From positions 1-16,117 of IMG/VR virus record IMGVR_UViG_2778261278_000003: a stretch of DNA of 16,117 bases; one strand, 5' to 3'. Position numbers: made by a program. Shown piece after piece: positions 9,001 to 12,000 of the stretch. Every line of letters starts with the position of its first letter. Position 1 is the stretch's first letter. Origin of the DNA: a virus. Lineage: Duplodnaviria; Heunggongvirae; Uroviricota; Caudoviricetes.

Positions 9001-12000
9001 TTCTGGCCGCACTGTTTATGGTGCTGGCAAACCGCTACGACTGGCAGCTCTTTCTGGAGGTGACCGGTCCCGGCGGCAGCGGCAAAAGTATCATGGCCGA
9101 AATCGCCACCCTGCTGGCCGGGGAGGATAACGCCACGTCGGCCACCATCGAGACGCTGGAATCCCCGCGTGAACGTGCCGCGTTAACTGGCTTCTCACTG
9201 ATACGCCTGCCGGACCAGGAAAAATGGAGCGGCGACGGAGCCGGACTCAAGGCCATCACCGGCGGCGATGCAGTGTCCGTTGACCCGAAATACCGGGATG
9301 CGTACTCCACGCACATCCCGGCGGTGATTCTGGCCGTGAACAATAACCCGATGCGCTTCACCGACCGCAGCGGCGGCGTGTCACGCCGGCGGGTGATTAT
9401 TCACTTCCCGGAACAGATAGCCCCGCAGGAGCGCGACCCGCAGCTTAAGGACAAAATCACCCGCGAGCTGGCGGTCATCGTGCGTCACCTGATGCAGAAG
9501 TTCAGCGACCCGATGCTCGCCCGGTCACTGCTTCAGTCCCAGCAGAACTCAGACGAGGCGCTGAACATCAAACGGGATGCCGACCCGACGTTTGATTTTA
9601 TCGGCTATCTGGAAACCCTGCCGCAGACCAGCGGCATGTATATGGGGAACGCCAGTATCATCCCGCGCAATTACCGAAAATACCTCTATCACGCCTATCT
9701 GGCCTACATGGAGGCAAACGGCTACCGGAATGTACTCAGTCTGAAAATGTTCGGGCTGGGGCTGCCGGTGATGCTGAAGGAATACGGACTGAATTACGAG
9801 AAGCGCCATACCAAACAGGGGATACAGACCAACCTGACGCTGAAAGAGGAAAGCTACGGCGACTGGCTGCCAAAATGTGACGACCCTGCGACAACCCGAC
9901 CCTCATGACTCACCTGACCGGCATCTGCCGGTCTTTTTTATCCCTGAATTCCCCGAAGGTGAACAATCCACTGTTCACCCTTCACCGTATATTCACCCGT
10001 TATCACACTGAAATTAAAAGAGAAAAACGAAAGGTGAACAGTGTGAACAATCAAATCAAAAAAAACTTTTTTCTCCCTGTGTGATTTTCAGTACGGGGGA
10101 TTAATCACCGGTATGAGTCACACCGGCAGAATGCCGGAGGTGAAGAATCGAATGTTCACCCTTCACCCATTATTCACCACCTATCCAACTGAAATAAAAG
10201 GAGAAAACAGAAAGGTGAACAGTGTGAACAGTTCTTTCGAAAAAAAATTTTTTTCCTGTACGATATAGCATCAATCCAAGTAAAAATGCGTTTTCATTTC
10301 ACATTAACTTACAGCCATTGGTATACGATTAGGTATACGCACAAAAACTGAATTAAACAAAATCGTTAAAAATCAAAGCGATACAATATTTATTCAAACT
10401 CCGCCAGCCCAATCATGATTGGACGGTATAAGGACAACACCAATAAAAACAGGAAGTTAGCAGTCTCAGCAGGACACCGACCAGACGGTAAAGAGACATA
10501 AAAGGATACGCAAAGGAGCCGCGGCTCCTGGTGACATGAAAGCCCACAGATGTGGGCTTTTTCGTTGATGGTCAGAACGACCAGTTCACACCAGCTACCC
10601 CGTTCCACGGGGATTCCACACCGGCACCATGGCTATACCCCACCCCAAGATGCCCGCTTAACGTACTGCTGAATGAGGCTTTAATACCTGCCTGGTATAT
10701 TCCACGTCTGCCCGACAAATCATTGACGAAATTACCGTCACTATTCACTTTCACCCGGTTATCATCGACAAATTCTTTGCGCACAGCCGCCTTCAGCCAC
10801 GGCTCAACTTCCATACCGTTCCCCAGACGCATGTTGTAACTCAGCGTTGCACCCAGTTCACGATATAAACTGCGGGTATCGACTGATTTCGATTCCATGC
10901 CATTGGATAAATGATATTCAGGGTTATCAGCGGTGAACCCCCGTTAACGATGCATACGGCGTCAGGTTCCAGTTACCATCGGTAAATCGCATCCCGGTTT
11001 CAATGTGACCGCCCAGCCCGTTGCTGCGATAACTGCCGTTGGCGGCTCCACCGCTGCCAACCGTGGAGTCGCGAGCTTCGGTACCTGCTAATACCAATAA
11101 ATTACCGCCATTTTCCAGCAACATATTGGTCGCTAAATTGCCGGAAATGGAAAAAGTGCCGTACTGGTGAGTACCGCTGATTTCAATACCGTTAGCCGTG
11201 CTCGTCTGGAGAGCGGCACCGCTGTTCTGGACGATATCTGTCGCTTTGCCATTATCGTTAACTGTCAGCGTACCGCCTTCATTGATCTTTGTTTTTATTG
11301 CCTCTCCGTTAGCTGAAACTGTTTGTATTCCGCCGTCGTTAATCGTTGTCTCATTCGCCACCCCCTCGACGATTTGTTCGCCGCCGGTGAGCGTCGTGCC
11401 TGTCGCAGTGGCTTTTGTTTTGACGATCTCCCGTCCGCCCGTATTGACCTGTGTTTTGTCAGAAGAGGTGTCTGACTCCACGGTTAACACGCCGCCATTT
11501 GCCAGCAGGATATTGTTCGCCGCACCCTGCTCGATGCTGAACGCGACGCCATCCGCGCGTGTTCCTGTGACCCGCGTCGCCCTGGTGGTTGCAACCAAAG
11601 CGCCCTGGCTACTCTGCTGTATCCCCGTTGCGCTGCCTTTCTCCCGCACATCGAGTGTGCCGCCGTCATTAAGCACCGAGTTTTCAGCCAGACCGCCCTC
11701 ATTAACTACCTGTGAACACCCATTAATAATGGAACCTTCCGCTGTCCCGTTTGCCATAATTTGTTGTAGGCCAGAGACGATATCGGTATTGATTGCCTTA
11801 CCATAATTCTGAACGGTTTGCGTGCCACCATTGATGTGTGTTTTCTCTGTTGACCCACCATCAACAATTTGTTCACCACTTTCGATATTTGCCTCAGTGG
11901 CTAATCCATATACCGTTTGCTTGCCACCTTTGATATTTGCTTTATCAGAAGTGGCACTGGCATATATTGTTTGGGTGCCAGCACTATTGAGTACAGTGCC

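What the first reader, a model, noticed from the sequence alone, without database searches (positions are those of the whole stretch)
9955..10250. crr-like tandem 120-bp iteron repeats downstream of alpha
Two approximately 120-bp direct repeats about 60 bp apart, each carrying TGTTCACC/GGTGAACA iterons, match the architecture I recall for the P4 cis replication region, which is required in cis together with ori about 4.5 kb away. Here the spacing to the ori-like cluster is about 4.8 kb.
Basis: partly seen in the sequence, partly recalled or inferred. Interest (0 to 1): 0.45.

Follow-up and report, generated by a model that had tools for sequence, protein, structure and literature searches.

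The report
P4 satellite prophage replication site crr

Summary
Window 9953-10072 and 10134-10253 are two 120-nt direct repeats (97/120 identical, 61-nt spacer). Each carries the five P4-annotated TGTTCACC-type iterons plus one further unannotated degenerate copy.

[quoted passage not shown] Unit 1 is 120/120 identical to P4's and unit 2 is 117/120. It lies just after the alpha terminator and 4.73 kb from an ori cluster of six exact iterons, against 4.72 kb in P4. The alpha primase-helicase next to it is 771/776 identical to P4 alpha. Its origin-binding winged-helix domain is 100% identical to PDB 1KA8.

The window is an E. coli chromosome carrying a P4-like prophage at ssrA. Similarity to P4 ends exactly at the outer edge of crr, because the integrase/att module is a different one.

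crr-like DNA occurs in 1127 of 5426 complete E. coli genomes. An alignment of 14 sequences from 10 genera conserves the iterons and a terminal A-run/T-run tract, but not the spacer.

Verdict: already known, low interest. Side observations are a natural one-unit crr, cargo genes inserted between alpha and crr in other genera, and two unannotated cargo ORFs in the window.

The parts
9953..10253 (.). crr, the complete cis replication region (two 120-nt units plus spacer)
   Evidence: [quoted passage not shown] GC is 0.40, against 0.55 for the P4-homologous part of the window.
9953..10072 (.). crr unit 1 (120-nt direct repeat)
   Evidence: It is 120/120 identical to P4 unit 1. Mean pairwise identity is 0.87 among 14 sequences from 10 genera.
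10073..10133 (.). Spacer between the units (61 nt), not conserved
   Evidence: About 6 differences from P4, including a 1-nt indel. Across genera the pairwise identity is 0.48 and the length is 49-63 nt.
10134..10253 (.). crr unit 2 (120-nt direct repeat)
   Evidence: It is 117/120 identical to P4 unit 2. The only change is a 3-nt patch at 10186-10188, between iterons.
9958..9979 (.). Unit 1 inverted iteron pair GGTGAACA-N6-TGTTCACC (sites 9958-9965 minus strand, 9972-9979 plus strand)
   Evidence: Exact matches. Positions correspond to P4 'ori type 1 repeat' features. Almost all columns are invariant across genera.
9979..9997 (+). Unit 1 degenerate direct iterons cCTTCACC (9979-9986, not annotated in P4) and TATTCACC (9990-9997)
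   Evidence: The TTCACC cores are conserved in alignment A2.
10033..10049 (-). Unit 1 tandem iterons GGTGAACA (10033-10040, exact) and TGTGAACA (10042-10049, one mismatch), 9 nt apart
10058..10072 (.). Unit 1 terminal A8-C-T6 tract
   Evidence: 12 of 15 columns are invariant across 14 sequences. The motif AAAAAAANTTTTT occurs only at the two crr unit ends in the whole window, against 0.01 expected.
10139..10160 (.). Unit 2 inverted iteron pair GGTGAAGA (10139-10146, one mismatch) and TGTTCACC (10153-10160)
10160..10178 (+). Unit 2 degenerate direct iterons cCTTCACC (10160-10167) and TATTCACC (10171-10178)
10214..10230 (-). Unit 2 tandem iterons GGTGAACA (10214-10221) and TGTGAACA (10223-10230)
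10239..10253 (.). Unit 2 terminal A8-T7 tract, the last bases shared with P4 and with all other P4-like elements aligned
9916..9939 (+). Alpha terminator (t-alpha), GC hairpin plus T-run, 14 nt upstream of crr
   Evidence: Terminator scan. P4 annotates it as 'talpha'. 20 of 24 columns are invariant across genera.
7566..9908 (+). alpha gene: primase, SF3 helicase and origin-binding protein that recognises the iterons
   Evidence: 771/776 identical to P4 alpha. Residues 671-770 are 100% identical to the origin-binding domain structure 1KA8. Pfam: Zn_Ribbon_Prim, Toprim_3, D5_N, DUF5906, Pox_D5.
5122..5225 (.). ori type-1 iteron cluster (six exact TGTTCACC), the partner site of crr
   Evidence: Window 5050-5600 is 97.8% identical to the P4 ori region. 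P4 annotates 'origin of DNA replication' and 'ori type 1 repeat' there.
5329..5359 (.). ori type-2 repeats (three 10-nt GCTTTAAGTG units)
   Evidence: Tandem repeat finder. P4 annotates 'ori type 2 repeat' x3 at the equivalent place.
7231..7551 (+). ORF106 (DUF5375), the P4 cnr copy-number regulator by position
   Evidence: Pfam DUF5375, E = 2.9e-63. Equivalent to P4p07 ORF106. That ORF106 is cnr is my own knowledge; PMC8628076 places cnr between epsilon and alpha.
10317..10339 (+). Two GGTATACG words, probable integrase arm-type sites between crr and the right attachment core
   Evidence: The same words lie next to int at the left end of the prophage in L002, 2539-2563. The arm-site function is inferred.
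10393..10412 (+). Degenerate copy of the ssrA 3' end, probable attR core and right end of the prophage, about 140 nt beyond crr
   Evidence: Local alignment to the ssrA 3' end gives 18 matches in 21 columns. A copy of the ssrA terminator lies at 10537-10562. A 'tmRNA pseudogene' match covers 10409-10562 (H9). Inferred.

Best explanation
The region is the crr of a P4-type satellite prophage integrated at ssrA in an E. coli chromosome. It is one half of the element's bipartite replication origin.

Proposed mechanism:
1. The element's alpha protein (primase + SF3 helicase + C-terminal winged-helix DNA-binding domain) binds the TGTTCACC-type iterons.
2. Those iterons occur in two clusters: ori (six copies, 5122-5225) and crr (five to six copies in each of two 120-nt units).
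3. After excision or infection, alpha bound at both sites bridges them, probably through a DNA loop across the 4.7 kb that holds alpha's own operon.
4. This assembly is needed in cis for opening and priming at ori.
5. Cnr (ORF106) modulates alpha's DNA binding and so restrains copy number.

Shown here: the sequence identity, the anatomy, the intact cognate binding domain, and conservation of the iterons across genera. Taken from the P4 record's annotation and from classical P4 work: alpha binding to the iterons and the cis requirement. Inferred: the looping model and the role of the terminal A/T tract.
For: - Identity to the annotated P4 crr is 95.7% over 348 nt. Unit 1 is 120/120 and unit 2 is 117/120, with all ten annotated iterons unchanged.
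- The position matches P4: after the alpha terminator and 4728 nt from ori, against 4720 in P4.
- Alpha is 99% identical to P4 alpha, and its origin-binding domain is 100% identical to 1KA8. [quoted passage not shown]
- The iteron is strongly enriched: 13 copies against 0.6 expected.
- Comparative support: among alpha relatives of >=79% identity from other species, 25 of 39 with usable flanks have >=3 TGTTCAC both within 450 nt downstream of alpha and in the upstream ori region. The background is 0.24 per kb.
- In 5 of the 9 loci that seemed to lack crr, the cluster is only displaced 0.7-3.1 kb downstream.
- In a 14-sequence, 10-genus alignment the iteron columns have a majority fraction of 0.97. 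The spacer falls to 0.58 and varies in length, and sequence beyond unit 2 falls to 0.50.
- In a decayed element with truncated alpha (L005), the unit-2 iterons are degraded.
- A 2026 preprint still treats crr as the site essential for P4 DNA replication.
Against: - Nothing in the sequence contradicts the identification.
- The cis requirement and alpha binding cannot be tested computationally for this copy.
- The element is an integrated prophage, so whether it is currently replication-competent is unknown.
- Natural variants with only one unit exist next to an intact alpha (L004). The two-unit form may therefore not be strictly required.
- The primary papers on alpha binding and looping were not available in the library. 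The looping step is therefore background knowledge plus inference.
Confidence: 0.93

Rival explanations
1. The downstream iteron cluster is a negative copy-number control locus, like incA of plasmid P1 or incC of F. It would titrate the initiator or 'handcuff' the origin, rather than being a positive, required part of the origin.
For: The layout is the same as in P1 and F: origin iterons, then the initiator gene, then a second iteron cluster downstream. The P1/F comparison comes from my own knowledge. Bridging of two iteron clusters by one initiator is common to both models.
Against: The P4 record annotates the identical sequence as 'cis required region for replication'. Current P4 vector work keeps crr as essential for replication. 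The two roles are not mutually exclusive, and nothing here can separate them.
Confidence: 0.04
2. The repeats belong to the attachment site: they would be integrase or excisionase arm-binding sites at the right end of the prophage.
For: crr lies only about 140 nt from the probable attR core and about 64 nt from arm-like GGTATACG repeats.
Against: - The same crr sits next to two different integration modules: the P4 attP/int, and here an ssrA-associated int that shows no megablast similarity to P4.
- Similarity among all 14 aligned elements stops exactly at the outer edge of unit 2, and element-specific sequence follows.
- The repeated word in crr is the ori iteron, not the arm word.
Confidence: 0.01
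3. The region is protein-coding: the ORF predicted by GeneMark in the P4 RefSeq record (P4p05) starts in the spacer and runs through unit 2.
For: P4p05 is annotated as a 111-aa hypothetical protein over unit 2. The first 47 codons are nearly the same in the window.
Against: In the window the frame stops after 51 codons, right where similarity to P4 ends. Its start codon lies in the spacer, which is unalignable across genera. No promoter-like site is found in 9700-10700. The shared part is just the translation of a conserved DNA repeat.
Confidence: 0.01
4. It is a chance or low-complexity repeat with no function.
For: None. The region is AT-rich (GC 0.40).
Against: P = 1.5e-36 for the unit pair, and shuffles reach at most 55/120. 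The region is conserved in 1127 of 5426 E. coli genomes and across 10 genera.
Confidence: 0

Closest known systems
crr (cis replication region) of satellite phage P4 (NC_001609 / X51522, positions 4291-4590)
   Same: Position after alpha and its terminator. Two 120-nt units, each with five annotated type-1 iterons in the same order and orientation. Unit 1 is 120/120 and unit 2 is 117/120 identical. The distance to ori is the same (4.73 against 4.72 kb). The alpha origin-binding domain is identical.
   Different: The spacer is 61 instead of 60 nt, with about 6 substitutions. There is a 3-nt patch difference in unit 2. The flanking DNA differs: this copy abuts an ssrA-type attachment region instead of P4's attP/int, and P4's gop/beta/cII cargo is replaced.
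crr of other P4-like satellite prophages in Enterobacterales (for example Klebsiella, Citrobacter, Enterobacter, Raoultella and Edwardsiella loci L011-L040)
   Same: The two-unit plan, iteron positions, terminal A-run/T-run tract and preceding terminator hairpin are the same. The same iteron word also clusters in their ori regions.
   Different: Their start-to-start period is 166-180 nt, with a 49-63 nt unalignable spacer. The eighth iteron base is often T in unit 2 (TGTTCACT). Some have one unit only, or have cargo genes between alpha and crr.
Second iteron clusters of iteron plasmids (P1 incA, F incC) and long-range initiator bridging in R6K (own knowledge, not tested here)
   Same: An initiator-binding iteron cluster separate from the origin lies downstream of the initiator gene, and one protein bridges two DNA sites.
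   Different: incA and incC are dispensable negative regulators, whereas crr is annotated as required in cis. The initiator here is a primase-helicase fusion with a winged-helix domain, not a RepA/pi-type protein. There is no sequence relationship.

Membership tests
P4-type crr | Nucleotide homology to the experimentally defined P4 crr | tested here: met
   95.7% over 348 nt including flanks. Unit 1 is 120/120 and unit 2 is 117/120.
P4-type crr | Two ~120-bp direct repeats separated by ~60 bp | tested here: met
   9953-10072 and 10134-10253, 61-nt spacer, 97/120 identical, P = 1.5e-36.
P4-type crr | Each repeat carries type-1 iterons (TGTTCACC and one-mismatch variants), the same word as in ori | tested here: met
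   Five annotated positions per unit are conserved, plus six exact copies in ori. The window holds 13 exact copies against 0.6 expected.
P4-type crr | Located immediately 3' of the alpha gene and its terminator, several kb from ori on the same molecule | tested here: met
   Alpha stop codon ends at 9908, terminator at 9916-9939, crr from 9953, ori 4728 nt away.
P4-type crr | Cognate initiator (alpha) with an origin-binding domain encoded by the same element | tested here: met
   Alpha is 771/776 identical to P4 alpha. Residues 671-770 are 100% identical to 1KA8.
P4-type crr | Bound specifically by alpha protein | not testable with these tools
   Needs a gel-shift or footprint assay. It is expected, because both the protein domain and the sites are identical to P4's.
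P4-type crr | Required in cis for replication | not testable with these tools
   Rests on the P4 record annotation and its use in P4 vectors. It needs a deletion and replication assay.
Plasmid negative-control iteron locus (P1 incA / F incC type) | Second iteron cluster downstream of the initiator gene | tested here: met
   Layout shown.
Plasmid negative-control iteron locus (P1 incA / F incC type) | Dispensable for replication, with deletion raising copy number | not testable with these tools
   The annotation of the identical P4 sequence says the opposite: it is required in cis.
Attachment-site arm repeats | Repeats co-vary with the integrase/att module | tested here: not met
   The same crr lies next to different int/att modules, and similarity ends at the crr edge in all 14 aligned elements.

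The most novel reading that the evidence does not exclude
The most novel reading not excluded is that crr does more than act as an auxiliary origin site.

- The invariant terminal A-run/T-run tract of each unit has no assigned function in the P4 annotation and is absent from ori. It could be the actual unwinding or priming site, or a bending site that sets loop geometry.
- crr may also mark a fixed module boundary of P4-like satellites. Just inside it (between the alpha terminator and crr) some genera carry extra low-GC cargo genes. That would be a second accessory-gene site, missed when elements are delimited from int to alpha.
Probability: 0.12. Interest if true: 0.4.

Novelty: already known. 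Interest (0 to 1): 0.08.

Why it matters
For this window it matters only as annotation. It confirms that the P4-like prophage at ssrA carries a complete replication module: ori, cnr, alpha and crr. It also places the right end of the element about 140 nt beyond crr. The cross-genus footprint gives a useful practical rule: the ori/crr iteron pair and the A/T tract can be used to delimit P4-like satellites more accurately than the alpha gene alone. No new biology of crr itself emerges.

Tried and rejected
- ARAGORN found no tRNA or tmRNA in the window. The ssrA-derived pieces at the right junction are too degenerate, and I located them by alignment only.
- Rfam gave only the P4 immunity-region RNAs, with nothing in crr.
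- The promoter scan found no sigma-70-like site in 9700-10700, so I dropped a promoter role for crr.
- I rejected the P4p05 ORF as a gene.
- I tried to read the primary papers (Ziegelin 1993 PMC413647, Lindqvist 1993 PMC372931, Christie & Dokland PMC3518693). None is held.
- Text searches for the iteron sequence and for oriI/oriII found no P4 primary paper. One search failed on a term that was too short.
- PADLOC gave no convincing defence-system hit for the cargo ORFs, either in the window or between alpha and crr in other genera.
- A de novo search for a different iteron in distant Pantoea-type elements (alpha about 68% identical) was inconclusive. It gave only a weak signal, a CTTCAC/GGTGAA core shared by both sites in 5 of 17 loci.
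- One search was an incomplete script submitted by mistake and gave nothing.

Full report
**Observation**

The repeat finder reports a single strong family in 9500-10700: two 120-nt direct repeats at 9953-10072 and 10134-10253, 181 nt start to start, leaving a 61-nt spacer. The units are 97/120 identical.

At the local base composition, the chance of 97 or more matches in 120 is 1.5e-36. In 30 shuffles of the region the best 120-nt direct match was 55.

The octamer TGTTCACC occurs 13 times in the window on both strands. The expectation is 0.6, and no more than 4 were seen in any of 200 shuffles. Six copies lie at 5122-5225 and five in the repeats.

With one mismatch allowed, each unit has five sites:
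- Unit 1: 9958(-), 9972(+), 9990(+), 10033(-), 10042(-).
- Unit 2: 10139(-), 10153(+), 10171(+), 10214(-), 10223(-).
- Each unit also has one further cCTTCACC, at 9979-9986 and 10160-10167.

**Identification**

A sensitive blastn of 9900-10300 against 50,697 phage records hits only the three phage P4 records. Identity is 95.7% over 348 nt. [quoted passage not shown]

Base by base, unit 1 is identical to P4 unit 1 (120/120). Unit 2 differs only by a 3-nt patch at 10186-10188, between iterons (117/120). The remaining differences fall in the spacer (61 against 60 nt) and in the short stretch between the terminator and unit 1. All ten annotated iterons are unchanged.

**Context**

- Window 2911-10253 is 98% identical to P4 4291-11624, from cos through psu, delta, sid, ori, the immunity region, epsilon, ORF151, ORF106 and alpha to crr.
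- Similarity stops exactly at the last base of unit 2.
- The window as a whole is 99.2% identical to the chromosome of E. coli E21845/O/A, where the order is smpB, ssrA, integrase, two hypothetical genes, psu ... alpha, then ypjA.
- The element is therefore a P4-like prophage at ssrA. Its integrase/att module is not P4's, and its cargo genes differ.

On the right side:
- Two GGTATACG words at 10317-10339 repeat words found next to int at the left end.
- A degenerate copy of the ssrA 3' end lies at 10393-10412.
- A copy of the ssrA terminator lies at 10537-10562 (H9).

I infer that the prophage ends about 140 nt beyond crr. This parallels P4, where the attP arm repeats and core follow crr by 117 and 194 nt.

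**The partner parts are intact**

- The ori region (5050-5600) is 97.8% identical to P4's. It has six exact type-1 iterons and three type-2 repeats.
- The ori-crr distance is 4728 nt edge to edge, against 4720 in P4.
- Alpha (7566-9908) is 771/776 identical to P4 alpha, differing also in a few C-terminal tail residues.
- Alpha residues 671-770 are 100% identical to the crystallised P4 origin-binding domain 1KA8. [quoted passage not shown]
- ORF106/DUF5375 (7231-7551) is present. By my own knowledge this is cnr.
- A GC hairpin with a T-run at 9916-9939 is the alpha terminator.

**Comparative evidence**

crr-like DNA is found in 1127 of 5426 complete E. coli genomes, always on chromosomes. One copy is 100% identical.

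I then fetched 76 loci encoding alpha relatives (63-99% identity) from other species. The core TGTTCAC has a background of 0.24 per kb in these loci. Among loci with alpha >=79% identical and usable flanks:
- 25 have three or more copies both within 450 nt downstream of alpha and in a 150-nt window of the upstream ori region.
- 9 have the ori cluster only.
- 2 have the crr cluster only.
- 3 have neither.

In five of the nine 'ori only' loci, the cluster is simply displaced 0.7-3.1 kb downstream. Low-GC ORFs are inserted between the alpha terminator and crr.

An alignment of 14 two-unit crrs from 10 genera gives a clean footprint:

| Region | Result |
|---|---|
| Iteron columns | majority fraction 0.97 |
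| Terminator | majority fraction 0.96 |
| Terminal A-run/T-run tracts | majority fraction 0.93 |
| Unit 1, whole | mean pairwise identity 0.87 |
| Unit 2, whole | mean pairwise identity 0.83 |
| Spacer | mean pairwise identity 0.48, length 49-63 nt |
| Sequence beyond unit 2 | majority fraction 0.50 |

The constraint is therefore on the two units and their iterons, not on the spacer or on a reading frame.

Two anecdotes fit this picture:
- An E. coli element with truncated alpha and pseudogenised int and psu (L005) has decayed iterons in unit 2.
- An element with intact alpha (L004) has a single chimeric unit, with a unit-1 head and a unit-2 tail. This is the expected product of unequal recombination between the tandem units.

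**Mechanism**

Shown here:
- The sites, their arrangement and their identity to P4.
- The identity of the binding domain.
- Selective conservation of the iterons.

From the P4 annotation and the classical literature (Flensburg & Calendar 1987; Ziegelin et al. 1993, 1997; Tocchetti et al. 1999; cited from memory, as the papers were not available):
- Alpha binds the type-1 iterons of ori and crr.
- crr is required in cis.
- Cnr modulates alpha binding.

Inferred:
- Alpha bridges ori and crr by looping out the 4.7 kb that carries its own operon.
- The inverted iteron pair at the head of each unit could seat a winged-helix dimer.
- The conserved A/T tract bends or melts. The tract is unique to crr in this window and has no annotated role.

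**Rivals**

- A negative-control iteron locus of the P1 incA type shares the layout. It conflicts with the 'cis required' annotation and cannot be separated from the main model by sequence.
- An attachment-site role is rejected. The same crr sits beside different int/att modules, and similarity ends at its edge.
- The RefSeq ORF P4p05 over unit 2 is rejected. It is cut to 51 codons here, and its start lies in the unconserved spacer.
- Chance is excluded.

**Verdict**

The feature is a near-identical copy of a textbook element and is already known. Interest is low.

The side observations are minor leads: cargo between alpha and crr in other genera, single-unit variants, and two unannotated cargo ORFs at 1227-2785 in the classical P4 hotspot.

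Noticed in passing
window 1227-1919 (-) and 1886-2785 (-): Two overlapping ORFs (230 and 299 aa) lie between the integrase and cos/psu. This is the known cargo/defence hotspot of P4-like satellites, and here they replace P4's gop, beta and cII. They have no Pfam or PADLOC match and hit only PHROGs of unknown function (31922, 28486). They are a candidate uncharacterised cargo pair.
   Followed up: partly
L013 9341-10065, L034 9341-10182, L036 9338-11092, L055 9323-12431, L063 9341-10881: In P4-like elements of Tenebrionibacter, Kosakonia, Dryocola and Scandinavium, low-GC (0.32-0.37) cassettes of one or two ORFs are inserted between the alpha terminator and a displaced crr. 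They include PIN_12 + DUF3800 (L055) and DUF4431 (L036); the rest have no match. This is a possible second accessory-gene site, lying outside the int-to-alpha delimitation used for P4-like satellites (PMC8628076).
   Followed up: partly
L004 6001-6120 (E. coli 23CRST007) and L005 6001-6270 (E. coli Santai): L004 has a single chimeric crr unit (unit-1 head, unit-2 tail) beside an intact alpha, a recombinational collapse of the tandem pair. L005 is a decayed element (truncated alpha, pseudogenised int and psu) whose unit-2 iterons have degraded.
   Followed up: partly
window 10317-10339, 10393-10412, 10537-10562: Right junction of the prophage. It holds GGTATACG x2 (arm-like, with the same words beside int at the left end), a degenerate ssrA 3' end and a copy of the ssrA terminator. 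Similarity to P4 ends at 10253, so the int/att module has been exchanged relative to P4.
   Followed up: partly
window 10572-16117: Remnant of an older island at the ssrA locus, resembling CP4-57 (my own knowledge). It includes ypjA split into 10927-13962 (nine AIDA repeats) and a C-terminal fragment at 10572-10898, a DNA-invertase fragment at 14262-14399, a second ssrA-end-like CCGCCAGCTCAAC at 14575-14587 followed by a hairpin, a 15-nt tandem repeat at 14774-14812, and DUF5508/DUF5507 genes.
   Followed up: no
window 5843-5920 and 6028-6115 (+): Rfam matches to isrK (71 bits) and C4 antisense RNA (77 bits) fall in the P4 immunity region between ori and epsilon. This is consistent with the P4 CI RNA system.
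   Followed up: no
L001 6208-6543 (P4 RefSeq P4p05) / window 10113-10268: The GeneMark-predicted 'hypothetical protein' P4p05 of the P4 RefSeq record overlaps crr unit 2 and attP. It is not conserved: 51 codons here against 111 in P4. It is probably a spurious annotation.
   Followed up: yes
L006-L008, L037, L071, L078: Contigs with 98-99% identical P4 alpha are binned into MAGs labelled Ferruginibacter, Clostridiales, Ruminococcus and Dysgonomonas. One with an 81% identical alpha is in a genome record labelled Vagococcus. These are most likely enterobacterial contamination or mis-binning of short contigs.
   Followed up: no
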